64,000 nucleotides of DNA from the NCBI GenBank assembly GCA_001793095.1, contig MGHG01000005.1:6569-70568 (forward strand). The letters are read 5' to 3'. Positions 2,730 to 56,066 of this stretch are shown one piece after another (the first letter of the stretch is position 1; every line of letters begins with the position of its first letter). Made by a program: the position numbers and the translations under genes. This DNA is from Candidatus Woesebacteria bacterium RIFCSPLOWO2_01_FULL_39_23. GTDB taxonomy: Bacteria > Patescibacteriota > Microgenomatia > UBA8517. The notes under the pieces were generated by a model, which made no database searches, was not told the DNA's origin, and worked only from the letters and a program-made list of their open reading frames with translations.

Positions 2730-3737
2730 TTAAAGGAGTCCCATCTTTTCTTTAACCTCTTTTAAGGTTTGACCTGCGATATCCCGAGCTTTCTTTGCAC
2801 TTTCCTGAATCACATTGTCAACATAAAACTCGTCCTTTTCCAGCTCAGTGCGTCTTTTTTGTATCGGTCCCAGTTCTTTATAAATCGCTTCAGCAAGTTC
2901 CGACTTTAATTCGGAATATTTTATTCCATCAGAAGTATATTGCTTCTTATAATCTTCTTTCTTTTCTATCGTTTCGAAAAGTTCAACTAATGCAAATAAA
3001 CTTGCAACTCCTCCTGTTTCGGGGATTTTATCTCCTCTTCCAGAATCCGTCGGAACCTTAGCTAACTTCTCTCGTATCTCGTTTTGTGTATCACTTAAAA
3101 GTATATAGCTTCCCTCGACGCTCTTACTCATCTTTCCCTCCCCTGTTAGTGAGGGTACATAGTGACCTTCAGTTTTAAACTGATCGGGTTCGGGAAAATC
3201 TAACTCATACTTCTCATTCATCTTTCTTGCCACCTCGCGCGTGACTTCCAAATGTGGAAGCTGGTCGTCACCAACGGGTACTGCATTAGCCTTGTAAATT
3301 AAAATATCCGAAGCCATTAAAACCGGATAGTACAAAAGCGCCATATTTACGTCATCCGGATACTGTTTTATCTTCTCTTTATAAGTCGGTAAATGCAGCA
3401 TTCTTGCAACTGTCAGTTCTGTTGCAAAAAGATATGATAACTCGATATGCTCTGGAATATGGGATTGGACAAATATTGTAGACTTTGACGGATCAAGCCC
3501 GGCGGCTAAATAATCCAACACAACGTGCCTGATATTTTTCTTTAAATCCTCGGGCTTATAGGGAACGTTTATCGAGTGGAGATCAGCAACCATATAAAAG
3601 GTTTCAAAATCAGGATTTTCCTGCAATGCTAGCATGCCCTTGATTGCACCAAGGTAATTACCTAGATGCAGCCTCGAATTGGCTCTAATCCCCGACAGAA
3701 CACGCTTTCGGGTATTTGTTCTAATATTGTCTTTCAT
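2730..3737 (-). CDS. trpS: tryptophanyl-tRNA synthetase
   Basis: 335 aa; class I aaRS signatures: HIGH-like SGIRANSRLHLGNY and KMSKS; length and motifs typical of TrpRS. Confidence 0.85.
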   Translation of the reverse strand: MKDNIRTNTRKRVLSGIRANSRLHLGNYLGAIKGMLALQENPDFETFYMVADLHSINVPYKPEDLKKNIRHVVLDYLAAGLDPSKSTIFVQSHIPEHIELSYLFATELTVARMLHLPTYKEKIKQYPDDVNMALLYYPVLMASDILIYKANAVPVGDDQLPHLEVTREVARKMNEKYELDFPEPDQFKTEGHYVPSLTGEGKMSKSVEGSYILLSDTQNEIREKLAKVPTDSGRGDKIPETGGVASLFALVELFETIEKKEDYKKQYTSDGIKYSELKSELAEAIYKELGPIQKRRTELEKDEFYVDNVIQESAKKARDIAGQTLKEVKEKMGLL

Positions 3738-4366
3738 AACTGTTTAATTATTCTCGCTTTTAATCCATAACAATTATATGAGTTTTTTCCTGCAAAAAGT
3801 GGGATAAATCCCTCGCGACATTTAATAAAGTTTTTATACTTACCTTGTTTATCAATCTTACCAAAAACTTCATATAATGTAACTCTCTTTACGCTCGGTT
3901 TATTTAAATTGCTAACTATTCGTATTGTATTTTTAATGGACTTGAAAGAAAAATGCTTTCCTACCTCAACAGACACCCCAGCAAAATAATCTATAAGTGA
4001 ATAGCCTTTCTTAATGTTATATTTCATAAATACAATTTTCGGAATTCCCAGCGTTGAGGCAAATGGTATCATTTTTTTGTCTACAACAATGACAAAAGCT
4101 TCATTCATTGATTGATTTGTATGCAAGTCTATTACTAATTTATTTTTATCTAATCTTCTAACTAATTTTTTTGCCAGTCTTTCCTCATAGGACATACCCG
4201 AAGTACCAAAAGAAGCATTCAAATCTTTTTCAATAAATCTTACATTTTTTGCTAATGCTAAAGTATTGGCAACCACTTGTTCCTCGTTTATACTTGCAAG
4301 CGCAATTATGGGAAGTTTTTCATCTCCGTGTAAACCAGTAACAAATTGAATTTTATTCATAATCAT
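3734..4366 (-). CDS. succinylglutamate desuccinylase/aspartoacylase (AstE/AspA) family zinc hydrolase
   Basis: 210 aa; GLHGDE and DLH metal-ligand motifs of the AstE_AspA deacylase family; stop overlaps the upstream gene start (4-nt overlap). Confidence 0.5.
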   Translation of the reverse strand: MIMNKIQFVTGLHGDEKLPIIALASINEEQVVANTLALAKNVRFIEKDLNASFGTSGMSYEERLAKKLVRRLDKNKLVIDLHTNQSMNEAFVIVVDKKMIPFASTLGIPKIVFMKYNIKKGYSLIDYFAGVSVEVGKHFSFKSIKNTIRIVSNLNKPSVKRVTLYEVFGKIDKQGKYKNFIKCREGFIPLFAGKNSYNCYGLKARIIKQL

Positions 4367-5442
4367 CCTTTCTTATTTATTCTCGCCGTTAGTCTTAGAG
4401 ATGGTAAATCAATAAATCTAACGGCATCTTTTTCTCCTTCAATTTCAGTAGATTGAGGATTATAGTTTAAAGTTACTTCGGCTTCAATTTTAGAAAGTTC
4501 GTTGTGAGTTTTAAATTCACAGGCAGCCATGATAAGTGCCGGACATGTTCCACCAAGTCTTCCAGTAATATCCGTAATTCCGCTTAGCGAATCCTCCTTG
4601 CTTGTCTTTCCAAACAAACAATCATAACTGATTCTTGATATTGATGGATTGAAATAGGAATAAAACTGATCAAATTTTTGTGATTTTATAATAGCAATTT
4701 CTTCGTTTCTATTATTAGCAATTGCTGACAAATTACTAATATTTCCCCGAACAACTCTAATTTTTGCCCCCATATATCTATCTCTGCCATCCTCCGGAGC
4801 AACATCATTCTTTTGAAGAGCGAGAAAGCTATATCTTTCCCCTTGCAAATCACAGTAACCAACGGAGATTGTATTTTGGTCATACAAATTTACCTCTAAC
4901 ACGAGTCCTTCTGTAGATATTTTTTCCTCTTGTAATTTATTTATTACAGTTCTTAATTCCGTTTGGTTCTCTACAGTAAACTGGTCCCTACCATCTGACT
5001 CATTGGGAATTTTTATCCTAACAGCTCGAGATACATACCCAATCTCTTTGTATGCTTTTTCTATACCCTCTTTCGAAAAAACCGTAACACCAGGTAAAAC
5101 CAAATCTTCCACTATCTTAGAAAAATTAACCGAGTAAAAATCGGGTGTATTTACTGTATTTGTTTTATGAAGAATTGCTTTATGTACATGACCTATTTTG
5201 TCAATTAATAATCCATAGAAATCATTTTTATCATTTATACCTTTTAAGTGAGAAAGTCCTCTAACTTGAGTTACGGGCGGGACATAGTATACGTTCATGT
5301 TATTTTTATCAATTTCTTCTTTTTCATCAACATAATCTACACCAAAGTAATTAGCTATATATTTAGCAACTAGGCCATTTCTGCCTCGATAATAATTCCT
5401 ATAAGGCAAAGTCGTTGTAACACCCTCTAAATCGAGCTTCAC
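4363..5442 (-). CDS. hypothetical protein, possibly ATP-grasp-like, translationally coupled to the AstE/AspA-like gene
   Basis: 359-aa ORF with 4-nt overlap to the downstream deacylase gene; no unambiguous motif, and the ATP-grasp assignment is a guess from spacing of Gly-rich and acidic segments. Confidence 0.4.
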   Translation of the reverse strand: MKLDLEGVTTTLPYRNYYRGRNGLVAKYIANYFGVDYVDEKEEIDKNNMNVYYVPPVTQVRGLSHLKGINDKNDFYGLLIDKIGHVHKAILHKTNTVNTPDFYSVNFSKIVEDLVLPGVTVFSKEGIEKAYKEIGYVSRAVRIKIPNESDGRDQFTVENQTELRTVINKLQEEKISTEGLVLEVNLYDQNTISVGYCDLQGERYSFLALQKNDVAPEDGRDRYMGAKIRVVRGNISNLSAIANNRNEEIAIIKSQKFDQFYSYFNPSISRISYDCLFGKTSKEDSLSGITDITGRLGGTCPALIMAACEFKTHNELSKIEAEVTLNYNPQSTEIEGEKDAVRFIDLPSLRLTARINKKG

Positions 5443-6129
5443 TGAAGATTTCGAGCCAAACTAACCCCCGTCCTTCGGCTGCACTCAGGATCTTGGACCC
5501 TGTGACAGACTCAGAACTAGAGGCTCCTTTCCCTACAATCCCTCTAAATTGATCTAATTCTTGTTTTCCCATATTTACTCTCTGTTTTACTACACTACTA
5601 CGTAGTGATGTAGTAAAATCTTGTTAAACAACAAATAGAGCCCTTGCAAAACCACCAAAAAATGATGATCTTACAAGGGCCCTTTCGACTTTGCTCAAGA
5701 CTATAGCCTTCTGGGTGTGCCACCCTGTTTTGTCGACTTATTCCAGTTACCCTCCTTATTTTCGCACTCAGCTTTTAAGTTTTATTCAAACACGCTTCGT
5801 GCCAAAATTATCGGAGGGTTGTGTACTATTTTAAGAACTCAAGGTACACAAAAAATCCCGATCAAATCGGGACTCATCTTAAATAAGCAAACCTTATTCT
5901 TGACGAGCTCCACTTCGATTACATTCAATGTAAACGTTACGACACTCGTTGCAGTCTTATTACGGTTTCGCCTCCGTCGCATATTTTTGCGCTCCTTGTC
6001 TCGCCTTAGCTTTACGCGTAGGCGGACGACCCAGTTCCAACCCTCTGGATCAAAGGATTTATTAAATTATGAATGAATGATATCAAAACAAAAATTAAAA
6101 AGCAAATCGAAGCTAAAGGGAAGAAAATA

Positions 6130-6357
6130 CTATTCGATCTTATTAAGAACGTTCATTAAATATTCATCAGTAACCTCAATGCTTGAAACTACACTACCAT
6201 CAACACCCCTAACAGGCATAAATCCATCGCCGTTTGATCCGAACACTAACGGCCTAGCAATAGCCAATCTCCTATTCCTATTTTTTTCTGACAGGTTTTC
6301 GGTTGGAATACCTCCTAAGGCCTGAATAGCTAGTTCTTGAGCTTCTTTACTTAGCAT
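6130..6357 (-). CDS. hypothetical small protein
   Basis: 75-aa ORF with plausible composition (MLSKEAQELAIQALGG...). Confidence 0.3.
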   Translation of the reverse strand: MLSKEAQELAIQALGGIPTENLSEKNRNRRLAIARPLVFGSNGDGFMPVRGVDGSVVSSIEVTDEYLMNVLNKIE

Positions 6358-6440
6358 AAATCTGTAACAATAGAGGTAATTATATAATTAAAATAACTAT
6401 TTGATAAGAAGCCAAAAAGAAGAAATAAGCTTTATTCTCT

Positions 6441-6743
6441 CTATTCAATCTTTGGTATTTTCACTATTGCTTTTGTTCCCGGACCTGCAGGTTTACCCTT
6501 ATTCGTAAAAGTGTTGTCCAGTTCAACTATAATATATAGATCATCCGGGCTCTGTTCTGCTTTCAATTTACCCGCTACCCGCTCTGCAGTATCTTCAGCA
6601 TTAGAGATTATTCTGCCGTCTTTAGTTACACCTCGCCTGTAATTACCAATAAATACCGTTCCCACTGGTAGGTCATAAAACTCCCGAAGTCTTTTAAAAA
6701 TTAGGTCACTCTCTTGTTCGAGTTTCGACTTCTCGGGCGTCAT
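6441..6743 (-). CDS. hypothetical protein
   Basis: 100-aa ORF, non-repetitive composition. Confidence 0.35.
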   Translation of the reverse strand: MTPEKSKLEQESDLIFKRLREFYDLPVGTVFIGNYRRGVTKDGRIISNAEDTAERVAGKLKAEQSPDDLYIIVELDNTFTNKGKPAGPGTKAIVKIPKIE

Positions 6744-6798
6744 AGAAAGATATTATAACACGATGTTTCGAAGCTAAAGGGAAGAAAAAAGTTTTAAT

Positions 6799-6999
6799 TT
6801 ACTTCTTGTTTAACTTTGTGGGTTCTATTTTCACTGAGGTCTCTATTATAACAACTTCACTTTTCCCAACTTCCGAAGGTAGGCGTTGAACTATTCTTTC
6901 TTTACTACTTATAATTCCGATCCTGTGAAGATGATATTTCTCCACAAGTCTTACTTCCCCTCCCCTTCCTGCAATCTTTCTTATTAAATTCATCACCAT
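6799..6999 (-). CDS. hypothetical small protein (KOW-like?)
   Basis: 66-aa ORF just upstream of the tRNA cluster on the same strand. Confidence 0.3.
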   Translation of the reverse strand: MVMNLIRKIAGRGGEVRLVEKYHLHRIGIISSKERIVQRLPSEVGKSEVVIIETSVKIEPTKLNKK

Positions 7000-7131
7000 G
7001 AGTGCCAGCGATTGGGATCGACCTACTAATCTTAGCTTTCGGCTTCAGGAACTATTCGTTCACGCCTCTAGCTGCGATTTCAGAAGGGTCAGCCTTTGGC
7101 TGAAACCCTTCACGATTATAAATTTGTCTTG

Positions 7132-7204
7132 TGTCAGCGGGTGGATTCGAACCACCGGCCGCTGCGTTATGAATGCAGTGCTCTAACCACTGAGCTACGC
7201 TGAC
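7132..7204 (-). tRNA. tRNA with CAU anticodon (Met, or Ile2 if lysidinylated); CCA not encoded
   Basis: Minus-strand read GTCAGCG TA GCTC AGTGGTTA GAGC A CTGCA TTCATAA CGCAG CGGCC GGTGG TTCGAAT CCACC CGCTGAC A. The cloverleaf is canonical with a 7-bp acceptor and TTCGAAT T-loop; 31:39 is an A-C mismatch. Confidence 0.8.
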
Positions 7205-7205
7205 A

Positions 7206-7291
7206 AACTTGAACTCTGAATGATGCGCTCCCCGCCTGCAGTACACTATGCGTAAGCATTACGGGCAAGTACCACTGAGCTATACTGGCGC
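7206..7291 (-). other. tRNA-like 5' fragment (acceptor strand + D-arm only) fused directly upstream of tRNA(CAU)
   Basis: Minus strand reads GCGCCAG TA TAGCTCAGTGGTA followed by about 60 nt that cannot be folded into anticodon and T arms. No matching 3' acceptor strand found. Confidence 0.4.
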
Positions 7292-7308
7292 GTCGAGTTT
7301 ATATTTTA

Positions 7309-7992
7309 CTACAATCGTGTTTGCAATCTCAAACCTTCGATATAACCTTGAATTTTCCTTAAAAAATCTTTACTTTTAAGAACTTTAACTCGTAATAAAC
7401 CATAATATTCATCGGGATGATCGTATATTTTTTTCCACTTCACATTCTGAAAATAGGGTTTTCTAAAATTATTAAGTGGAATATTTGTTAAGTCAGACCA
7501 ATGTCTTTCAATCTCTCTGATCCTAGATCGATGACTGTCATTAAGGGTTACACGTACAGTAAGATCGTTATAGTTATAATTAAAACATTTACTTAACCAT
7601 ATCAAAAACAAATTAATCATTGTTGGATCTGAATTAGCAAATCCAGCCTGACTATCTTTTTTAAAACCCTCGCTCCAATAGAGAGCTATTCCCACCAAAA
7701 ACAGCTCCCTTTTAGACAATAAGCCAACTTCGTTAATCCCCTTTCGTTTTAACTCCTCAACTTTCTTATTAGTTTGTAATTTTATATGATTTATATAATC
7801 TAAACGTTTACCATATAGAGGATCTCTTGCATGACTTTCTAAAACTTTGTATTGCTCTTGGGTTAGAATAATATCCCTTGTCCAAAGACTAACAGAACTT
7901 GTTGATACATTTAATTTTTTTGCTATATATTTAATGCTTAACCCTTTTTTTCTTAAATTTATAGCTTCAATTTTTTTCTGAGATTTTGCCAT
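7309..7992 (-). CDS. HTH-domain protein with LAGLIDADG-like motif (homing-endonuclease-like), paralog 1
   Basis: 227 aa; N-terminal HTH (LRKKGLSIKYIAKKLNVSTSSVSLWTRDI). Central LVGIALYWSEG resembles a single LAGLIDADG motif, followed by the conserved GFANSDP box. Paralogous to 55051..55770. Confidence 0.5.
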   Translation of the reverse strand: MAKSQKKIEAINLRKKGLSIKYIAKKLNVSTSSVSLWTRDIILTQEQYKVLESHARDPLYGKRLDYINHIKLQTNKKVEELKRKGINEVGLLSKRELFLVGIALYWSEGFKKDSQAGFANSDPTMINLFLIWLSKCFNYNYNDLTVRVTLNDSHRSRIREIERHWSDLTNIPLNNFRKPYFQNVKWKKIYDHPDEYYGLLRVKVLKSKDFLRKIQGYIEGLRLQTRL

Positions 7993-8032
7993 GTATACGA
8001 GTATTATTGTACCATACGGTCAAGTATTATTC

Positions 8033-8061
8033 TTGATTATTTTTTATACAGCAGCTATAAT
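8033..8061 (+). promoter_or_regulatory. sigma70-like promoter for tmRNA
   Basis: TTGATT (8033-8038), a 17-nt spacer, then TATAAT (8056-8061), about 28 nt upstream of the mature tmRNA 5' end; consistent with an RNase P-processed leader. Confidence 0.5.
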
Positions 8062-8089
8062 CATAACGTTCATTAATATATCAATACAT

Positions 8090-8424
8090 GCGGGGTAGTG
8101 TACGGCTGCACGGAAGGCTCGAAGTAATTGGGCCCTCAGATAAGAAATTATTATGAGTGAATTTGGTCACGGTACCATGTAGTACGTGATCGTGCGCTAA
8201 ATAGTGCGCGACTATATCGGTGAAACCTAAGTGGTAAGTATAAGCGGAATCATAAGGTAACGCCGAGGAAAGATCCTGAATAAAATTGAAGGAAATCCGT
8301 AGAGACTATACGCCAAATACCTAAACTATATTTAGAATGGTAAAGACATAGTCCGATACTCCGGGAAACCGGAGAAATTTTTAAGCATAATCTTCCAGGC
8401 TGGGTTCGACTCCCAGCCCCGCAA
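8090..8424 (+). ncRNA. ssrA: tmRNA (SsrA)
   Basis: 5' UGCGGGGU pairs with 3' ...GCCCCGCA across about 335 nt. The 3' end is a tRNA-like T-arm, CTGGG TTCGACT CCCAG, plus acceptor strand, discriminator A, and no encoded CCA. The 5' region GGCUCGAAG resembles the conserved tmRNA GGAUUCGACG box. No D-arm is present. Tag reading frame not resolved. Confidence 0.6.
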
Positions 8425-8429
8425 CACAT

Positions 8430-8475
8430 TCGACTCGCTTCGCTCGCTCAGTGCGAGCCGAGGAGAATGTGTGCT
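8430..8475 (+). terminator. hairpin cluster downstream of tmRNA
   Basis: CACATTC...GAATGTGTG long-range inverted repeat enclosing the GCTCGC TCAGT GCGAGC hairpin. Confidence 0.35.
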
Positions 8476-8559
8476 GAGCCCGTCGGAGCTCGACTTATTC
8501 GCTCCATTTCAATTACTATTGAAATGTCCACTTAACCAAGTCGGCTCCTCCTCTCAAAA

Positions 8560-8853
8560 TTGCATAGCAATTTTGAATTAACTGCTATACTACTCCCAAT
8601 GAAATCCGAATACGATCTTTACGGTGCCAGAAGGAAGGAAGATGAAGAGAAGTGGTTAAAATTAGTTAACTACTATCTTGACTCACTGGAATCCGGAAGA
8701 AAGATAAAACTAAAAGATGCTGCTGAAGCATCCGGTTATACTCCTAATTCAGCCTCTAACCAACTAAAAAAGATCAGAAGAGAAATAAATAAAAATAAAC
8801 TCGTTCTTACAAGAGATGGTAAGTTCATCGAACCGTCAGAAAAAATAACTTAA
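8560..8853 (+). CDS. hypothetical protein
   Basis: 97-aa ORF downstream of ssrA; charged C-terminus (KKIRREINKNK). Confidence 0.35.
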   Translation: MHSNFELTAILLPMKSEYDLYGARRKEDEEKWLKLVNYYLDSLESGRKIKLKDAAEASGYTPNSASNQLKKIRREINKNKLVLTRDGKFIEPSEKIT

Positions 8854-8954
8854 TCCATCCCAGCACATTCTTCCCACTCGTCTTTCCTGCCTACCGGCAG
8901 GTCAGTTTTAGCCAAACTCGGCTCGTAGAGCTAATAATCGGGATTGTTTGTTAT

Positions 8955-9308
8955 TTATATGCCAAAAAGATGAAACCATTTCTTCCAGTTTGGATCGGGA
9001 AGGGTGTCCTCTTGCTCTTCAATTTTGGGAGCGAGTTTCCTTACAACCTCGGGTGGTGGGAGAACTACCACTATCTCCCCCTCTTTCGCTAAGCCTAATT
9101 TATCCCTTATCTGCTTCTCAATATAATCGTCGCTTTTCACCTCTTCCAACTTTTTCTCAAGATCTTTTTCCTCTTCCTCTAAAGCCTTTACTTTCTCTTC
9201 TTTTTCCTTAGTCATTCTCTTGATCTCCTGCACTCGACCTATATTCTTGTAGAATGAAAGCGCCAACGAGAGTAGCAAAAAGTAAAAAAGGAATTTTTGG
9301 AATCTCAT
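8955..9308 (-). CDS. septum formation initiator (FtsB/DivIC/FtsL-like) coiled-coil membrane protein
   Basis: 117 aa; N-terminal TM, long Glu/Lys coiled coil, IEKQIRDKLGLAKEGEIVV segment typical of FtsB/DivIC. Confidence 0.5.
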   Translation of the reverse strand: MRFQKFLFYFLLLSLALSFYKNIGRVQEIKRMTKEKEEKVKALEEEEKDLEKKLEEVKSDDYIEKQIRDKLGLAKEGEIVVVLPPPEVVRKLAPKIEEQEDTLPDPNWKKWFHLFGI

Positions 9309-9532
9309 ATTATAATTTTACAGCTCATTTCAATTTCTTAAAGCTAGGTTATTCCGAGTTCAAAGCAAGATCCAACATCATTCACCTTACATAATTCTAA
9401 CAAGAGTTTGTAATTATTCTTACATAAATAGACTTATAATGTATTGACCTCTTGTGCAAAGATGTGTTAATATACTGCCCATAAGCCTTTAAAAAAGGGT
9501 ATAGATAATTCTCAGGCTTAAGTTCTGCATAT

Positions 9533-10396
9533 ATGGTACAAGATTCCTTAAAAAGTCTGCTCCCCAAATTTATTAAGAATTTGGAAGAAAAAAAACGTTC
9601 CCCCTCTACTATACTCGCATATAGAGCAGATCTGGAACAATTGGTATCATTTCTAATAGAAAAAGGTAAAGTAACCAGTGATCAAGTTAAATCTGAAGAT
9701 ATAGAAGCCTTTAGAGATTCTCTCTTAACCCAGAAATATACCCCAAAATCCGTTTCAAGGAAGCTAAACGCAATTAAAACCTTTTTCAGATGGATTATTG
9801 ACGGCAAATTTGCAACATACGATCCTTCCTCAAACGTATCCCACCCCAAAGTCGAAATTTCTAATCCCAAGTTTTTATCTCCCCTCGAATACCGCGCTTT
9901 AAGAGATGTTGTCCGGGGTGATTTGCGAGTTGCAGCCATAATTGAGCTTATTCTCCAAACAGGACTCCGAATTTCCGAAGTATCAAACCTTAAAATTGAT
10001 GATATTAAAGATAGTAACTTAAAAGTCAGAGCATATGCGACCCAGCTCGAGCGTGTAATTCCACTTAATAATCCCGCCAAACAAGCACTAGACCAGTATC
10101 TCAAAGGTAGGCCAAAAGGAGATTCCGAATATATTTTTGTAAGTAAGAATTCAAAACCTCTGGCTATAAGAAACGTTCGCGCAGCAATTGATAGATATTT
10201 CCAAAGAGCCGAAATAGCAGGCTATTCGGTAAATGATCTGAGAACAACTTTTGTCGTTCAAAACCTTAAGGCGGGTGTCGATTTAGTCTTTTTATCTAAA
10301 GTTTCCGGCCACAGACGCCTTTCAACCACCGAGCGCTACCTCGAACTTGCTCAAATAAAAGAATCCGGCAAGAAACAAACCCTCGAAGAATTATAA
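9533..10396 (+). CDS. tyrosine site-specific recombinase (XerC/XerD-like)
   Basis: 287 aa; N-terminal core-binding ILAYRADLEQLVSFL; C-terminal catalytic R...HRRLSTTERY (R-H-R-Y) signature. Confidence 0.8.
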   Translation: MVQDSLKSLLPKFIKNLEEKKRSPSTILAYRADLEQLVSFLIEKGKVTSDQVKSEDIEAFRDSLLTQKYTPKSVSRKLNAIKTFFRWIIDGKFATYDPSSNVSHPKVEISNPKFLSPLEYRALRDVVRGDLRVAAIIELILQTGLRISEVSNLKIDDIKDSNLKVRAYATQLERVIPLNNPAKQALDQYLKGRPKGDSEYIFVSKNSKPLAIRNVRAAIDRYFQRAEIAGYSVNDLRTTFVVQNLKAGVDLVFLSKVSGHRRLSTTERYLELAQIKESGKKQTLEEL

Positions 10397-10532
10397 TATT
10401 CCAAGGTGAAGTCAGCGATTTGTAATCCTGAGTGGATCTCAGATGGTGAGCGCAGTCGAATCCCTCGAAGGAGTCGAAGGACAAACTTTGGAAGAACTAT
10501 AATCCGATAAAGTAGAGGCTTCTCCTTGCCAA

Positions 10533-10823
10533 TTAATCGCTTTCGCGTAAATCTCTAGGACGTTTTTCCTCTCTACTTAATCCAGTACCAGTCGAAGTTG
10601 GAGTAATTGGATTAGTACCTCTTCCTTGTGGTTCAGGATCAAATACACTCTTTAAGTCTGCTTCAAGTTGGTTTCTTCTGTAAGGGTTATCTCCCGCCCA
10701 ACTTTCTAATATTTTTCTTGAATCTTCAATCGGACCGAAGTTCCCACCCGTTTTAATATTTGGTATATGAATACGATAATCTACCGGAAGCTCGCCTAAC
10801 CGCTCCTTTTTTATTTCCGACAT
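10533..10823 (-). CDS. hypothetical protein with low-complexity C-terminus
   Basis: 96-aa ORF immediately upstream (same strand) of tRNA(UAU). Confidence 0.3.
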   Translation of the reverse strand: MSEIKKERLGELPVDYRIHIPNIKTGGNFGPIEDSRKILESWAGDNPYRRNQLEADLKSVFDPEPQGRGTNPITPTSTGTGLSREEKRPRDLRESD

Positions 10824-10880
10824 AATAAGTTTTTATCATCTTAATTATAACAAAAATCTCATTTTCGACATATCGAAATT

Positions 10881-10955
10881 TGGTGGAGCCGCTTGGAGTC
10901 GGACCAAGTACATCGATCTTATAAGGATCGCGTTCTGCCGGTGAACTACGGCTCC
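10881..10955 (-). tRNA. tRNA with UAU anticodon (putative tRNA-Ile decoding AUA), CCA encoded
   Basis: Minus strand: GGAGCCG TA GTTC ACCGGCA GAAC G CGATC CTTATAA GATCG ATGTA CTTGG TCCGACT CCAAG CGGCTCC A CCA. All stems are Watson-Crick, giving a 72 nt body plus CCA. Confidence 0.7.
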
Positions 10956-11034
10956 CCAAATTCCGCTATAAGCCAAGCTTGCATCTCACTACGTTCGATG
11001 TAAGAGTCGCGCTCTACCATTGAGCTACAAGCCC
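10956..11034 (-). other. tRNA-like 5' fragment fused upstream of tRNA(UAU): acceptor + D-arm + anticodon 5' stem/loop with UAC, no 3' half
   Basis: Minus strand GGGCTTG TA GCTC AATGGTA GAGC G CGACT CTTAC..., then no complementary anticodon 3' stem or T-arm. Same architecture as the fragment at 7206-7291. Confidence 0.4.
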
Positions 11035-11079
11035 AAGATTTCGCTTTATCTGAAGCTATATTATATAACAGAAGGTAAG

Positions 11080-11319
11080 TTAAAGAAACTTAATTATATC
11101 CTTGACTGCAAAGTTACGTTCCTCATTCTTTTCCAAATCTAAAGCTTTTAGAAACCATTGCTCTTTCGGATGCCACTGGGTCTTGCCATACCAAAGCTTG
11201 ACAGGTTGAACCCGCCTAATGGCTACTTCACTCTGCCAGTTGGTGTATTCGAATTTTAGGGGTATAACACGAGTCTGTTTCTTAACCATAACGTTTATAT
11301 TTACCACTAAGTAGTTCAA
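11080..11319 (-). CDS. hypothetical protein
   Basis: 79-aa ORF. Confidence 0.3.
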   Translation of the reverse strand: MNYLVVNINVMVKKQTRVIPLKFEYTNWQSEVAIRRVQPVKLWYGKTQWHPKEQWFLKALDLEKNEERNFAVKDIIKFL

Positions 11320-11351: not shown

Positions 11352-11720
11352 TTAACTTTCGATCTTGTCTTTGTAACGATATAAAAGAAATGAAACTTTA
11401 GCTCTCTGTTTATCAAATTCTTCGTACTCATCACTACTCCAGTAGTTAACCGCTTTCACCACTTCACCTTGGCTTTCAAGTTCAAGAAGGGAGCCCTCAG
11501 CTATCTCAAGATATCGAAGCTTATCTTTAATAGATCTTCTTACCCAACCCTCTGCAATTTGGCTCATTATTGAAACAGTTGCTCTTCTCATCTGAGATTT
11601 AAGTCCAAATTGCTCGCTATTCGGAAAATTCTCTGTTAACCGGTAAACTAATATTGTCAATTCCTTCGCTTCTTGCCATACAATTAAATCTCTGTACCCG
11701 GAAATATTTTTATACGTCAT
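11352..11720 (-). CDS. four-helix-bundle protein (23S rRNA intervening-sequence protein family)
   Basis: 122 aa; YRDLIVWQEAKEL...FGLKSQMRRATVSIMSQIAEG matches the conserved signature of this family. Confidence 0.7.
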   Translation of the reverse strand: MTYKNISGYRDLIVWQEAKELTILVYRLTENFPNSEQFGLKSQMRRATVSIMSQIAEGWVRRSIKDKLRYLEIAEGSLLELESQGEVVKAVNYWSSDEYEEFDKQRAKVSFLLYRYKDKIES

Positions 11721-15809: not shown

Positions 15810-17966
15810 TTAAAGTTCGCAGGTCGAATACCCGCATTTTTTACACTTAAGACATTTTCTGTCTCTAATCAGTTTACCACTACAGTTAGGACAAATATTT
15901 ACTCCGCCGGCTGGCGGATTTTTTCTTCCCCCGAATTCAAACACTTGATCGTTCTTTGTTCTATCGCGATAAACAGTCAGTCCTTTACAACCAAGCTTCC
16001 AGGCTAGCACATAAGCTTCCTGAATATCTTTAGGAGTTGCCGAAGCGGGCATATTTATCGTTTTTGTAATCGCGTTATCTGTCCACCTCTGGAAAGCTGC
16101 CTGCATTTTTATATGATCCCTCCAATTTATATCGTGAGCCACTTTGAAAATCCGCCTAATATCGGCGGGAATTTCTTGTATATTTTGGATACTCCCATGA
16201 TGATCGATAACCATTTGTATTAATGCATCCGAATATATTCCCCGCTCTTGTAGCTTCTTCACAAAAAGAGGCACCACAGTTCGAAGATGCATGCCATCAA
16301 GTACATTTTGTTCATAGGCAAGTGCAAAATAGGGTTCAATTCCAAAAGAAGTTTCGCAGATAACGGCATTTCCGGAGCTTGGAGGAAAAGTAAGGAGAGC
16401 AACATTTCTGGGTTTTTTCGCTCTTTTTGCCCATATTGAGTCTTTGACTAAAGGAAACGGACCTTTTTCTTTAGCAAGCTTGCATGAAGCTTCAAATGCT
16501 GCCTCGTACATCGTTTTTGTTACATGCTCAGCTAAGTCAAAAGCTTCCTTGGAGTCATATGGAATTCCAAGTATCGTAAGAGCTTCAGCCCATCCGACAC
16601 AGCCAATTCCTATTCTTCTGTGCGCTCTCACCGATTCAGTGACCTCCGTAACCGGAAACCATGAGGCGTCAATCACGTTATCCATTAATCTCGTGGCAAT
16701 TACCATAACGCTTGTCAATTTGTCAAAATCGAAGGTACGAGCTTCAGGATTGACAAACTTAACGAAATTAACATACCCCAAATTACATGATTCATAAGGA
16801 TACTGGGGAATCTCACCGCACACATTAGTAGCTAATATCGGACCTTTTTTGGCCAATAACGGATTCCCGAATTGCGTGCCTTTATTAATTGCTGAAAGAT
16901 TAAGTATTCCCGGATCTCCTGTTTGCCAAGCCATCGTTGCCATGAGCTCCAAAATCGAGCTTGCCTTGACAGTATTTACTACCTCGTTAGTTCTTGGGTT
17001 AACTAGTTTCCAGTCTTTGCCCTTCAATGCAGCTTGCATAAAAGCATCGGTAATACCGACCGAGATATTGGTTTTACTTAAATAGCCGTCATTTTGTTTT
17101 GCTGCAATAAAATTAAAGATATCCGCATGGTCAGCGTTGAGAACCGCCATATTGCCGGATTCATATCTGCCCTCCTGACGGAAAAGCGACGTCATCAAGT
17201 CAAACATCTCGATTATCTTAACCGGTCCTGCTGCAAGATCCGGAATACCCCCTACAACATCCCCCTCAGGTCTGACATTAGAAAAGTTGTAGCCGCATCC
17301 TCCGCCATGTTTTTTAATAAGAGTCGATTGATGGAGAATCTTAAAAATAAAATTAATATCATCTTCCACCGGCCAGACAAAACAATTCCCGAGCTGAGCG
17401 GCCTTCTTGCCTGCATTTGCCAGAGGCCTGGTTCCCGGGTGGAATTCAAAATTTATCATGACATCATAAAATTTCTTGTACCACATATCCTGATTTTTCT
17501 TACCCTTTTCAACACTTGCTAAAAATCTGGCAACTCTGTCAAACATTCCGCCGGGAGTTTCGATAATTTCTCCCTTTTCATTTCTACTGAGGTATCTTTG
17601 CTTTAATATGTATAACGTATTATAGGAAAGCCCAATATCGTCTTTTACTCCAAGAGATTCCTTATCCTGCCGGGCGTGTTTCTTATTCTCACGAAAGCGG
17701 ATAAACTCCTTGGCAGTTTTTGCGTGACCTCGTTCAATCAAGACTTTTTCTACAAGCTCGCCAATTTCAGTCGTTTTAATACTTTCACCATTCGGATATC
17801 TTATCTCTAAAGTCTCCTTTACCAATTCTCCCAACTCGAGTGCCAAGTTTTTATCATTACCGCCTACTTTTTGCGCAGCCATCCAAATACTTTCCGTGAT
17901 CTTCTCAACTGAAAACATTTCCTTCTGACCGGAAAGTTTAATTACCTTTTTTGCAGTTTGCGTCAT
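15810..17966 (-). CDS. nrdJ: ribonucleoside reductase class II (adenosylcobalamin-dependent) with N-terminal ATP-cone and C-terminal zinc ribbon
   Basis: ATP-cone region VIKLSGQKEMFSVEKI; active-site NVCGEIPQYPYESCNLG (NxCGE family motif); C-terminal CPNCSGK...CLKCKKCGYSTC. The ORF is listed to 18125, but M54 at 17966 avoids overlap with the upstream nrdJ. Confidence 0.85.
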   Translation of the reverse strand: MTQTAKKVIKLSGQKEMFSVEKITESIWMAAQKVGGNDKNLALELGELVKETLEIRYPNGESIKTTEIGELVEKVLIERGHAKTAKEFIRFRENKKHARQDKESLGVKDDIGLSYNTLYILKQRYLSRNEKGEIIETPGGMFDRVARFLASVEKGKKNQDMWYKKFYDVMINFEFHPGTRPLANAGKKAAQLGNCFVWPVEDDINFIFKILHQSTLIKKHGGGCGYNFSNVRPEGDVVGGIPDLAAGPVKIIEMFDLMTSLFRQEGRYESGNMAVLNADHADIFNFIAAKQNDGYLSKTNISVGITDAFMQAALKGKDWKLVNPRTNEVVNTVKASSILELMATMAWQTGDPGILNLSAINKGTQFGNPLLAKKGPILATNVCGEIPQYPYESCNLGYVNFVKFVNPEARTFDFDKLTSVMVIATRLMDNVIDASWFPVTEVTESVRAHRRIGIGCVGWAEALTILGIPYDSKEAFDLAEHVTKTMYEAAFEASCKLAKEKGPFPLVKDSIWAKRAKKPRNVALLTFPPSSGNAVICETSFGIEPYFALAYEQNVLDGMHLRTVVPLFVKKLQERGIYSDALIQMVIDHHGSIQNIQEIPADIRRIFKVAHDINWRDHIKMQAAFQRWTDNAITKTINMPASATPKDIQEAYVLAWKLGCKGLTVYRDRTKNDQVFEFGGRKNPPAGGVNICPNCSGKLIRDRKCLKCKKCGYSTCEL

Positions 17967-17973
17967 GATGGTA

Positions 17974-55773: not shown

Positions 55774-56066
55774 TCCCCGGTAGCTCAGCGGTAGAGCGGA
55801 TTCCTGTGATTTCTTAGCAGCTCTTAAGGGAAACTTTAAGATGAAAACTGGGAGAATTGCGTGAAGCCCCTATCTTCGGATGAGGTAACCCGCAGCCGAT
55901 CCTTTGTTAAAGTGGAAAGCACTGCTTTAGCTTAGGCAGGTTCAGAAACTATGCACCCAGACTCTAATCCAAATCGGCATGAGTAAGATATAGTTCCGCG
56001 TCCCATGGAAACATGGGGGTACGAGTAAGAATAAGGTCGTAGGTTCGAATCCTACCCGGGGAGCCA
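55774..56066 (+). tRNA. tRNA-Asn(GUU) interrupted by a 218-nt group I intron between positions 35 and 36 (intron 55808..56025); CCA encoded
   Basis: Exon 1 is TCCCCGG TA GCTC AGCGGTA GAGC G GATTC CUGU. Exon 2 is UAA GAATA AGGTC GTAGG TTCGAAT CCTAC CCGGGGA G CCA. The acceptor is a perfect 7 bp. The intron has group I core elements: P-like GGGAAACTTTAAGATG, Q-like AATTGCGTGAAG, R-like GTTCAGAAACTATG and S-like AAGATATAGTTCC. An IGS GCAG can pair with exon CUGU, and the intron ends in G. Confidence 0.8.
55808..56025 (+). mobile_element. group I self-splicing intron (tRNA anticodon-loop type, no internal ORF)
   Basis: Conserved P/Q/R/S core sequences are listed above. The 218-nt length is in the range of Azoarcus/Anabaena tRNA introns. 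The ORFs listed on the opposite strand inside it are spurious. Confidence 0.75.

What the first reader, a model, noticed from the sequence alone, without database searches (positions are those of the whole stretch)
7206..7291. Orphan tRNA 5'-half fragments fused head-to-tail to complete tRNAs at two loci
At 7206-7291 and 10956-11034 (both minus strand) the sequence opens like a canonical tRNA. One begins GCGCCAG-TA-TAGCTCAGTGGTA, the other GGGCTTG-TA-GCTC-AATGGTA-GAGC-G-CGACT-CTTAC. Neither has an anticodon 3' stem, T-arm or 3' acceptor strand. Each runs directly into an unrelated, intact tRNA (CAU and UAU respectively). Two independent occurrences of the same 5'-fragment + full-tRNA arrangement, each next to a possible nuclease or recombinase gene (LAGLIDADG-like; XerC-like), look like scars of repeated recombination or homing at tRNA genes. 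They could also be a non-canonical split or leader structure.
Basis: seen in the sequence. Interest (0 to 1): 0.55.

Follow-up and report, generated by a model that had tools for sequence, protein, structure and literature searches.

The report
Dead tRNA stubs before replacement tRNAs
The two "orphan tRNA halves" are leftovers of this bacterium's original tRNA-Met and tRNA-Ile genes, each broken in the anticodon loop and replaced by a second complete gene for the same tRNA just downstream; relatives show the same pattern, so these tRNA genes turn over repeatedly.

Summary
The window comes from a Woesebacteria-like (CPR/Patescibacteria) metagenome contig. A 98%-identical strain assembled independently has the same arrangement, so it is not an artefact.

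Both fragments are relics of the resident, syntenic tRNA genes. Fragment 1 is elongator tRNA-Met(CAU). Fragment 2 is tRNA-Ile(UAU), not Val. Each matches intact orthologues up to anticodon nucleotide A35 and then diverges. A complete tRNA with the same anticodon follows 12 or 45 nt later. For Met it has no promoter-like site of its own and sits behind the conserved resident promoter.

It carries a 39-nt hairpin in the D loop and runs on to the anticodon loop. Its T-arm/3'-acceptor relic (7003-7024) lies 106 nt beyond the new tRNA, so the new gene is nested in the old one.

Comparable relic-plus-replacement structures occur in five other Woesebacteria loci.

The neighbouring 227-aa protein does have a LAGLIDADG fold, but it tracks a group I intron in the adjacent tRNA-fMet. 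The XerC-like gene is conserved whether or not relics are present.

The mechanism is inferred only: breakage or recombination at anticodon-loop DNA followed by decay. This is a new variant of known tRNA-fragment scars and is of moderate interest.

The parts
7303..7332 (-). Resident promoter-like site, TTGAGA-18 nt-TAAAAT. It overlaps the last codons of the 227-aa gene and lies 11 nt upstream of the Met relic.
   Evidence: 10/12 match. The same ...GGTTTGAGATTRCAG...TAAAAT is present in the nine relatives listed. No promoter-like site lies between the relic and the intact tRNA.
7270..7291 (-). Met relic, part a: GC + acceptor 5' strand GCCAGTA, TA, D stem 5' strand GCTC, D loop AGTGGTA.
   Evidence: Aligns to intact tRNA-Met of L014/L027/L028/L030 (17-18 of 20) at the same distance from the promoter.
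7231..7269 (-). 39-nt insertion in the D loop of the relic that folds as a hairpin (-14.4 kcal/mol).
   Evidence: About 70% identical to a 40-nt insertion at the same D-loop position in L034-L037.
7217..7230 (-). Met relic, part b: D stem 3' strand GAGC, G26, anticodon-stem 5' strand CATCA, loop TTCA ending at A35.
   Evidence: 11/14 identical to an intact tRNA-Met up to A35, then 4/19. Homologous to the L033 and L029 relics.
7205..7216 (-). Junction 12-mer GAGTTCAAGTTT between the relic and the intact tRNA.
   Evidence: The same motif (GAATTCAAATTT, GAATTCCAACT) is at the same place in L033 and L029 and nowhere else in the 41 loci.
7131..7204 (-). Functional replacement tRNA-Met(CAU), acceptor GTCAGCG.
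   Evidence: 70 bits. 86% identical to the L007 tRNA-Met. Its T stem differs from that of the relic.
7025..7130 (-). 106-nt spacer of the insert. It holds the hairpin GAAGGGTTTCAGCC-AAA-GGCTGACCCTTC. Its first bases (CAAGACAAATTTAT) resemble the 3' flank of the L007 tRNA-Met.
   Evidence: No repeat of it elsewhere.
7003..7024 (-). 3' relic of the resident tRNA-Met: T loop, T stem 3' strand CCAAT, acceptor 3' strand CGCTGGC, discriminator A.
   Evidence: 20/20 identical to the 3' end of the intact L014 tRNA-Met. It pairs 6/7 with the relic's 5' acceptor strand.
11060..11070 (-). Putative extended -10 element TGTTATATAAT of the resident tRNA-Ile gene. Read by eye.
   Evidence: TTGATATAAT, TGGTATAAT or TGTTATAAT sits at a comparable place upstream of tRNA-Ile, or of its relic, in the relatives. 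The strict scan found no site with a -35 box.
11001..11034 (-). Ile(UAU) relic: acceptor 5' strand GGGCTTG, complete D arm, anticodon-stem 5' strand CGACT, loop CTTA ending at A35.
   Evidence: 30/34 to L007 tRNA-Ile; 13/14 identical up to A35, then 5/19.
10956..11000 (-). 45-nt spacer. It contains a T-loop-like ATCGAAC and CAAGCTT, which could pair with the relic's acceptor strand. It may therefore be the decayed 3' part of the old gene, or DNA that came in with the new gene.
   Evidence: local tRNA hit 10974-11034, 21.5 bits, E 0.5: not significant. (z -2.2).
10881..10955 (-). Functional replacement tRNA-Ile(UAU) with encoded CCA, acceptor GGAGCCG.
   Evidence: 56 bits.
7309..7992 (-). 227-aa protein with an N-terminal HTH and a C-terminal single LAGLIDADG-fold domain (motif LYWSEGFKKD). 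Context gene.
8090..8424 (+). tRNA-fMet interrupted by a group I intron (8120-8385) at position 33/34. Context gene and partner of the LAGLIDADG gene.
9533..10396 (+). XerC/XerD-like tyrosine recombinase. Conserved syntenic gene (context).
   Evidence: Present in all relatives, with or without relics.

Best explanation
Both fragments are pseudogene relics of the resident single-locus tRNA genes of a Woesebacteria-like genome: elongator tRNA-Met(CAU) and tRNA-Ile(UAU).

Shown:
- In related genomes an intact tRNA of that kind sits at exactly these positions behind a conserved promoter.
- In this lineage similarity to the intact gene stops inside the anticodon loop, after A35.
- A second complete gene for the same anticodon, of a different allelic type, follows 12 nt (Met) or 45 nt (Ile) downstream on the same strand.
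- At the Met locus the new gene plus about 120 nt of flank lies between the 5' relic and a T-arm/3'-acceptor relic of the old gene, so it is a gene nested in a gene.

Inferred:
- At the Met locus the replacement tRNA is transcribed from the old promoter with the relic as its 5' leader, which RNase P removes. At the Ile locus the same is assumed, but its spacer could carry a promoter that came in with the new gene.
- The relics have no function of their own and are decaying. Signs of decay are the 39-nt D-loop insertion here, a scrambled D loop in L029, and only 10 nt left in L040.

Most likely origin (inference, about one chance in three): DNA breakage or illegitimate recombination targeted to the palindromic anticodon-arm DNA of these genes, repaired by capture of an isoacceptor gene from a related lineage. 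The copy downstream of the promoter is kept because both tRNAs are essential.

A candidate agent is the tRNA-associated HTH-LAGLIDADG protein family encoded right next to these genes. Its apparent cognate site, the intron insertion site in the tRNA-fMet anticodon loop (CTCATAA), differs by one base from the loops of the two affected tRNAs (TTCATAA and CTTATAA).

An almost equally likely origin is simple tandem acquisition of a second copy followed by deletions in the upstream copy. In that case only the promoter-proximal 5' part would be protected by selection.
For: Synteny and orthology. The gene order TraG-like / tRNA-Ile / XerC / DivIC / tRNA-fMet / 225-aa gene / tRNA-Met / TrpRS / FtsH is conserved. 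Intact tRNA-Met starts about 8-10 nt after the TAAAAT box in L014, L025, L027, L028, L030 and L038.

Relics. In 6 of 6 relics, identity to the closest intact isoacceptor is 11-14/14 up to A35/U36 and 4-7/19 beyond it. The 3' relic is a 20/20 match.

Other cases. Met: L033, L029 and L040 (leader ACGGATTCAT). Ile: L007 and L040, the latter with both halves around a 125-nt insert. L034-L037 carry a hairpin-bearing 5' part, but the contigs end inside it.

Different allelic types. The relic and the adjoining tRNA belong to different allelic types at both loci.

Succession at the Ile locus. The A type is alive in L010 and L038 and dead in L007. The B type is alive in L007, L028 and L030 and dead in the window. 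The C type is alive in the window.

Promoter. A promoter-like site lies only upstream of the Met relic.

Not an artefact.

LAGLIDADG fold. A paralogue lies directly upstream of tRNA-Ile in L014 and L028. A homologue lies inside a 21-tRNA array of a 235-kb viral contig.
Against: The three Met relics share G at position 36 and an 11-12 nt junction motif. The D-loop hairpin is about 70% conserved in a lineage that is not the window's sister. Random decay does not predict this. It hints either at constraint on the leader or at one kind of incoming cassette.

The LAGLIDADG gene is present both in loci with relics and in loci without them. It correlates with the tRNA-fMet intron, so a causal role is unproven.

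No donor locus with the insert's flanks was found.

Phylogenies are too poorly resolved to tell one old event from several.

The breakpoints of the downstream 3' pieces in L007 and L040 are blurred by mutations.
Confidence: 0.65

Rival explanations
1. The relic is a functional, conserved 5' leader element: a tRNA-half-derived RNA with a D-loop hairpin. It would control maturation of the downstream tRNA, or act as a decoy for a tRNA-binding enzyme or nuclease. It would be kept by selection since one old event.
For: The relic-junction-tRNA unit aligns between the window and L033 at 77%, while other intergenic DNA does not align. The junction 12-mer and G36 are shared by three lineages. The D-loop hairpin is about 70% identical in L034-L037 and both versions fold. 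The D stem is intact in the window and L033.
Against: The element is absent from L014, L025, L027, L028, L030 and L038. It is reduced to 10 nt in L040 and has a scrambled D loop in L029. Acceptor and anticodon-stem strands differ freely between relics. The folds of the two hairpins differ in their inner pairs and the window's z-score is only -1.6, so no covariation is established. There is no Rfam match.
Confidence: 0.13
2. The fragments are attachment-site scars of a small integrative element. A tyrosine recombinase, such as the nearby XerC-like enzyme, inserted the element into the anticodon loop or T loop. The element brought a whole tRNA gene instead of the usual 3' part.
For: The breakpoints fall in the anticodon loop and at the T loop, which are the two classical integrase sublocations in tRNA genes (Williams 2002, as cited in PMC9897764). 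The XerC-like gene lies about 0.5 kb from the Ile locus. The region between XerC and tRNA-Ile carries variable cargo. The L040 insert is bounded by GACA...TGTC with AT on both sides.
Against: The XerC-like gene is syntenic and 63-72% identical in all relatives irrespective of relics, and it is 2.2 kb from the Met locus. There is no integrase-bearing element and no direct repeat of identical sequence. The relic is a 5' part of a different allele, not a displaced 3' repeat. The GACA junction in L007 and L040 coincides with the start codon region (ATGACAGAA...) of an ORF that follows tRNA-Ile in L014 and L009.
Confidence: 0.1
3. The pieces form a split, permuted or intron-containing tRNA. The 5' and 3' pieces would be joined at the RNA level, with the inner tRNA released from an 'intron'.
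For: The outer 5' and 3' acceptor strands at the Met locus pair 6/7, and the 299-nt transcript folds with them paired (z -2.9). Group I introns do interrupt two other tRNAs in this window, and position 35/36 is a known Patescibacteria insertion site (PMC13011429).
Against: Joining the pieces leaves out the anticodon-stem 3' strand, the variable loop and the T stem 5' strand, so no cloverleaf forms. No group I core is detected at these sites even at E<=10. The 5' piece ends in A, not the U required at a group I 5' splice site. L033 and L029 have no 3' piece at all. Bacteria lack the archaeal splicing endonuclease (established knowledge).
Confidence: 0.02
4. The arrangement is a metagenome assembly chimera at conserved tRNA k-mers.
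For: The contig is a metagenome assembly. Four related contigs (L034-L037) break inside the D-loop hairpin.
Against: The arrangement is identical in an independent assembly of a 98% identical strain. Analogous structures occur in contigs from different projects and assemblers, including a 484-kb contig. The shared tRNA words are far shorter than assembly k-mers.
Confidence: 0.01

Closest known systems
Partial tRNA genes left at the ends of integrated genomic islands and prophages (attL/attR; Reiter 1989, Williams 2002; surveyed in PMC9897764)
   Same: A non-functional tRNA gene fragment lies near a complete tRNA of the same isotype. The breakpoints are in the anticodon loop or T loop. The tRNA locus is a hot spot of variable DNA.
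   Different: In this window the fragment is the 5' part of a different allele. It lies 12-45 nt upstream of the complete gene and not kilobases away. No integrase-bearing element lies between them. The complete gene is not a host/element hybrid but a whole second gene.
Preferential inheritance of a tRNA gene region driven by a free-standing homing endonuclease (phage T4 SegB, PMC2330249)
   Same: An endonuclease-fold gene is embedded among tRNA genes. Neighbouring tRNA alleles are replaced by alleles from a relative.
   Different: SegB is a GIY-YIG enzyme with shown cleavage and co-conversion. Here the protein has a LAGLIDADG fold, its activity is untested, its presence does not track the relics, and the replacement leaves a broken old gene instead of a clean conversion.
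Group I introns in the anticodon loops of Patescibacteria tRNAs (33/34 and 35/36; PMC13011429)
   Same: The phylum is the same. The interruptions fall at the same few nucleotides of the anticodon loop. Two true examples are in this window (tRNA-fMet and tRNA-Asn).
   Different: There is no ribozyme core, no U at the exon end and no restorable tRNA at the two sites of the finding. What follows the break is a complete tRNA gene.
Split tRNA genes of Nanoarchaeum equitans and Caldivirga maquilingensis
   Same: A stand-alone 5' half ends in the anticodon loop.
   Different: Those halves are joined into a full cloverleaf through complementary leaders and the archaeal splicing endonuclease. Here the halves are incomplete, are bacterial, and are made redundant by an adjacent full gene.

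Membership tests
att-site tRNA fragment of an integrase-mediated integrative element | The partial copy is a direct repeat (near-identical sequence) of the matching part of the complete tRNA. | tested here: not met
   The relic and the adjoining tRNA are different alleles. Met acceptor: GCCAGTA versus GTCAGCG. Met T stem 3' strand: CCAAT versus CCACC. Ile: GGGCTTG versus GGAGCCG.
att-site tRNA fragment of an integrase-mediated integrative element | An element of several kb carrying its own integrase lies between the complete and the partial copy. | tested here: not met
   Only 12 nt (Met 5'), 106 nt (Met 3') and 45 nt (Ile) separate the pieces. The XerC-like gene lies outside and is syntenic in all relatives.
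att-site tRNA fragment of an integrase-mediated integrative element | The breakpoint lies in the anticodon loop or T loop (integrase sublocations). | tested here: met
   The 5' relics end at A35/U36. The Met 3' relic begins at the T loop.
Group I intron-interrupted tRNA gene | A group I ribozyme core is detectable between the exons. | tested here: not met
   cmscan at E<=10 over 6700-11300 finds RF00028 only at 8110-8375 on the + strand.
Group I intron-interrupted tRNA gene | U is the last base of the 5' exon, G is the last base of the intron, and the exons join to a canonical tRNA. | tested here: not met
   The relics end in A35. The joined Met pieces lack positions of about 36-52.
Split or permuted tRNA gene | The separate pieces together give a complete cloverleaf with a functional anticodon arm. 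| tested here: not met
   No anticodon-stem 3' strand or T stem 5' strand is found anywhere in the locus. ARAGORN and Rfam find no such tRNA.
Free-standing homing-endonuclease cassette at tRNA genes (SegB-like behaviour) | An endonuclease-fold gene lies next to the tRNA genes. | tested here: met
Free-standing homing-endonuclease cassette at tRNA genes (SegB-like behaviour) | Presence of the endonuclease gene correlates with the converted or disrupted allele. | tested here: not met
   The 225-aa gene is present both in loci with Met relics (window, L029, L033, L040) and in loci without them (L014, L025, L027, L028, L030, L038). It correlates with the tRNA-fMet intron instead.
Free-standing homing-endonuclease cassette at tRNA genes (SegB-like behaviour) | The enzyme cleaves the sensitive tRNA-gene allele. 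| not testable with these tools
   This needs an in vitro cleavage assay.
tRNA pseudogene next to a functional paralogue (birth-and-death of tandem copies) | Same isoacceptor, same strand, adjacent position, and the relic lacks parts needed for a cloverleaf. | tested here: met
tRNA pseudogene next to a functional paralogue (birth-and-death of tandem copies) | The relic evolves without constraint. | tested here: inconclusive
   Signs of decay are seen (D-loop insertion, a 10-nt remnant in L040, a scrambled D loop in L029). However, the junction motif and the hairpin are shared between lineages.

The most novel reading that the evidence does not exclude
A small selfish 'replacement cassette' (a complete tRNA gene with short flanks) repeatedly enters the anticodon loop of the resident gene for the same tRNA. 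It destroys that gene and makes itself indispensable. In effect it would be an intron-like invader that compensates by gene replacement instead of splicing, possibly mobilised by the tRNA-associated HTH-LAGLIDADG endonuclease family. A second novel reading is that the retained tRNA-half leader with its D-loop hairpin is a functional RNA.
Probability: 0.15. Interest if true: 0.75.

Novelty: new variant of a known kind. Interest (0 to 1): 0.45.

Why it matters
tRNA fragments are usually read as footprints of large integrated elements. Here they record something else: essential single-locus tRNA genes in a reduced CPR genome being replaced in place, repeatedly, by alleles of another type, with breakpoints clustering at anticodon position 35/36.

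If the clustering holds in a wide survey, it points to a nuclease or recombinase that attacks anticodon-arm DNA. That would link tRNA-intron homing enzymes to collateral turnover of other tRNA genes.

There are also practical points. Such relics can be mis-called as tRNAs or as 'split' genes. They lengthen the tRNA leader. They also mark recombination hot spots that break assemblies.

Tried and rejected
- Near-identity search of phage records found nothing. The window is bacterial, from the CPR.
- Folding each fragment alone gave no significant structure (z -0.5 and -0.7). A truncated 'acceptor + D arm + T-like hairpin' reading of fragment 2 scored only 21.5 bits, E 0.5. I dropped it as a functional tRNA-like RNA.
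- I looked for a 3' half of the Ile relic and for other orphan tRNA pieces in the window and found none.
- I looked for repeats of the insert flanks, as a MITE-like element would leave, in the window and in all loci and found none.
- I compared the Met junction 12-mer with the 5' ends of the local tRNA-fMet group I introns and found no similarity.
- I read GACA...TGTC at the L040/L007 Ile junctions as terminal inverted repeats. I then saw that ATGACAGAA is also the start of an ORF that follows tRNA-Ile in L014 and L009, so the repeat reading is unsafe.
- I thought the D-loop hairpin showed compensatory changes. The MFE folds of the two available sequences disagree in the inner stem, so I withdrew that claim.
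- NJ trees of the 225-aa protein and of TrpRS do not resolve whether relic-bearing lineages form a clade.
- A scan of viral contigs for the junction motif found nothing.

Full report
**1. What is in the sequence.**
ARAGORN and Rfam find two uninterrupted tRNAs in the window, both on the minus strand: tRNA-Met(CAU) at 7131-7204 and tRNA-Ile(UAU) at 10881-10955. The D-arm word of fragment 2 is far from chance: 2 matches in the window against 0.09 expected.

The window belongs to a JGI metagenome contig. Its closest named relative is Candidatus Woesebacteria GW2011_GWC1_42_9. An independently assembled contig, 97.9% identical (L032), carries exactly the same Met arrangement, so this is not an assembly artefact.

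**2. Orthologous loci.**
I used the XerC-like protein and the 227-aa protein as handles and fetched about 20 related Woesebacteria loci. The gene order is conserved:

TraG-like/DUF8128 – tRNA-Ile(UAU) – XerC-like – DivIC – tRNA-fMet – 225-aa HTH protein – tRNA-Met – TrpRS – tRNA-binding protein – FtsH.

In L014, L025, L027, L028, L030 and L038 an intact tRNA-Met (acceptor GCCAGNG) begins about 8-10 nt after a conserved TTGAGA-N18-TAAAAT promoter that overlaps the end of the 225-aa gene. In the window, fragment 1 begins at that very position.

**3. Anatomy of fragment 1.**
It is longer than first described. In order on the minus strand:

| Coordinates | Content |
|---|---|
| 7291-7270 | Acceptor 5' strand and D stem/loop |
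| 7269-7231 | 39-nt hairpin insertion in the D loop |
| 7230-7217 | GAGC-G-CATCA-TTCA: D stem 3' strand, anticodon-stem 5' strand, loop up to A35 |
| 7216-7205 | 12-nt junction GAGTTCAAGTTT |
| 7204-7131 | Intact tRNA-Met |
| 7130-7025 | 106-nt spacer |
| 7024-7003 | ..GGTCGATCCCAATCGCTGGCA |

In the last segment, 7021-7002 is 20/20 identical to the 3' end of the intact L014 tRNA-Met. It pairs 6/7 with the relic's 5' acceptor strand. So a complete tRNA-Met of another allelic type (acceptor GTCAGCG, 86% identical to the L007 gene) is nested between the two ends of the old gene. The old gene lacks positions of about 36-52 and cannot form a cloverleaf.

**4. Anatomy of fragment 2.**
Bases 11034-11001 match the 5' half of the 'B-type' tRNA-Ile(UAU) that is alive in L007 (30/34). 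They match 13/14 through the anticodon stem up to U34-A35, after which identity drops to 5/19. It is therefore an Ile(UAU) relic, not a Val-like gene.

A 45-nt spacer follows, and then a 'C-type' tRNA-Ile(UAU) with encoded CCA. The spacer holds a T-loop-like ATCGAAC and a CAAGCTT that could pair with the relic's acceptor strand. The local tRNA score is only 21.5 bits, E 0.5. I cannot tell whether the spacer is the decayed 3' part of the old gene or incoming DNA.

**5. The pattern recurs.**

*Met locus:*
- L033 has GCTAGGGTAGCTCAGCTGGTAGAGCGACGGATTCA | GAATTCAAATTT | intact tRNA-Met.
- L029 has a more decayed 5' half ending ...TTTCA | GAATTCCAACT | intact tRNA-Met.
- L040 keeps only ACGGATTCAT between the -10 box and an intact GTCAGGG-type tRNA-Met.
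- L034-L037 carry a 5' part with a homologous 40-nt D-loop hairpin, but all four contigs end inside it.

*Ile locus:*
- L007 has an 'A-type' 5' half (15/15 identical to the living L038 gene up to U36) + 13 nt + a living B-type gene + a further B-like middle piece.
- L040 has both halves of an old gene around a 125-nt insert that contains a living gene.

Types therefore succeed one another at one locus. A is alive in L010 and L038 and dead in L007. B is alive in L007, L028 and L030 and dead in the window. C is alive in the window.

In 6 of 6 5' relics the similarity ends at A35 or U36.

**6. The neighbouring genes.**

The gene does not track the relics. It does co-occur without exception with a group I intron at 33/34 of the divergent tRNA-fMet:
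- Both are present in the window, L014, L025, L027, L028, L030, L033, L034/35, L038/39 and L040.
- Both are absent in L007, L002/L010 and L024.

A 30%-identical paralogue sits directly upstream of tRNA-Ile in L014 and L028 only. A 25%-identical homologue lies inside a 21-tRNA array of a 235-kb viral contig. The family is thus tRNA-gene-associated and probably includes the intron's free-standing endonuclease or maturase.

The XerC-like gene is 63-72% identical and syntenic in all relatives regardless of relics.

**7. How it most likely works.**

*Shown:* the fragments are relics of resident genes, and complete isoacceptor genes of another type lie just downstream. At the Met locus no promoter-like site separates relic and tRNA. 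At the Ile locus the scan found no promoter-like site on the minus strand; the upstream TGTTATATAAT box was read by eye.

*Inferred:* the living tRNA is made from the old promoter, and the relic is its leader (Met: 87 nt plus the bases from the start site), removed by RNase P.

*Origin (inferred, not shown):* the clustering of breakpoints at the centre of the palindromic anticodon arm in two tRNA families suggests site-directed breakage or recombination, followed by capture of a foreign isoacceptor gene. A homodimeric LAGLIDADG enzyme would recognise such a pseudo-palindrome and cut around its centre (established enzymology). The loops of the two affected tRNAs (TTCATAA, CTTATAA) are one base away from the intron homing site in tRNA-fMet (CTCATAA).

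*The plainer alternative:* a second copy is acquired in tandem and deletions then inactivate the upstream copy. Selection for the promoter would protect only its 5' part.

**8. What does not fit.**
The three Met relics share G36 and the junction motif, which occurs nowhere else in the 41 loci. Yet their stems resemble different living alleles: L033 resembles L025 (13/14) and L029 resembles L028 (12/14). The hairpin-bearing lineage L034 is sister to L040, not to the window (98% bootstrap).

The cause could be one old event with a constrained leader and several losses, or one kind of cassette entering repeatedly. The data cannot decide. The two hairpin sequences fold, but with different inner pairs, so covariation is not established.

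**9. Comparison with what is known.**
tRNA fragments from element integration are common (PMC9897764). They are 3' direct repeats that lie kilobases from the complete gene. Group I introns at 33/34 and 35/36 of Patescibacteria tRNAs are described (PMC13011429), and two are present in this window. The finding's sites have no ribozyme core and end in A. Split tRNAs need pieces that complete a cloverleaf, and these do not.

The closest behavioural analogue is endonuclease-driven replacement of tRNA gene regions (T4 SegB, PMC2330249), but the defining cleavage is untested here. The two literature searches I ran turned up no description of a head-to-tail '5' relic + replacement isoacceptor' pattern or of the nested form.

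**10. Verdict.**
The feature is real. It is best read as scars of in-place tRNA gene replacement. It is a new variant of a known kind and of moderate interest (0.45). The score would rise if the 35/36 clustering or a function of the leader were confirmed.

Noticed in passing
window 7309-7992 (-) and 8090-8424 (+); loci L014, L025, L027, L028, L030, L033, L034, L038, L040 versus L007, L010, L024: The HTH + LAGLIDADG-fold gene and a group I intron at 33/34 of the divergently transcribed tRNA-fMet are always present together or absent together (11 loci against 3). The gene is probably the intron's free-standing homing endonuclease or maturase, encoded outside the intron.
   Followed up: partly
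L041 2953-3612 (IMG/VR contig IMGVR_UViG_3300031997_000001, 235 kb): A 219-aa homologue with the same HTH + YWGEGFK motif lies in the middle of an array of 21 tRNA genes of a large viral contig. The protein family is therefore tRNA-gene-associated outside the CPR as well.
   Followed up: partly
window 55774-56066 (+): A tRNA-Asn(GUU) interrupted by a group I intron (about 55808-56025) at position 35/36. This is the unusual insertion site recently described for Patescibacteria. ARAGORN missed the gene. I read the exon borders by eye.
   Followed up: partly
window 5640-6050 (-), compared with L007 1006-1250: About 400 nt without a credible ORF are alignable with the region just upstream of tRNA-Trp in L007 and include a terminator-like hairpin. 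The tRNA-Trp itself is missing at this place in the window. There is no Rfam match, so this may be an unknown conserved non-coding RNA or leader.
   Followed up: no
window 3734-6999: About 3.2 kb lie between TrpRS and the tRNA-Met 3' relic and are absent from L014, L028 and L030. The stretch holds an AstE/AspA-like gene, a DUF3182 gene, the non-coding stretch above and small ORFs of 100 and 66 aa. It is a second insertion at the 3' side of the same tRNA locus.
   Followed up: partly
L038 about 3060-3160: After the intact tRNA-Ile comes an odd tRNA-like 3' piece. It has an anticodon-stem pair CGATC/GATCG with a 3-nt loop, a T-like stem GATGG/CCATC around 33 nt, then CTGCTCC-A-CCA. This resembles the 3' end of the window's living tRNA-Ile.
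   Followed up: no
tRNA-Met genes of the window, L007, L014, L025, L027, L028, L030, L038, L040: The anticodon stem of the syntenic tRNA-Met differs in almost every lineage (ACGGA, TTCGT, ATCGT, TCGGA, GTGGG, CAGGA, CTGCA), while the D arm and loop stay constant. This turnover is unusually fast for a tRNA stem. It would fit escape from something that recognises the anticodon arm.
   Followed up: no
window 11352-11720 (-); L040 10418-10807 and 15657-16016: Genes of the '23S rRNA intervening sequence protein' family (PF05635) are scattered in these loci as presence/absence insertions. One lies between the tRNA-Ile relic region and the TraG-like gene in the window.
   Followed up: no
window 15810-20562 (-): Two class II-like ribonucleotide reductase genes (771 and 862 aa) lie head to tail and overlap by about 150 nt. 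Both end in a similar Cys-rich tail.
   Followed up: no
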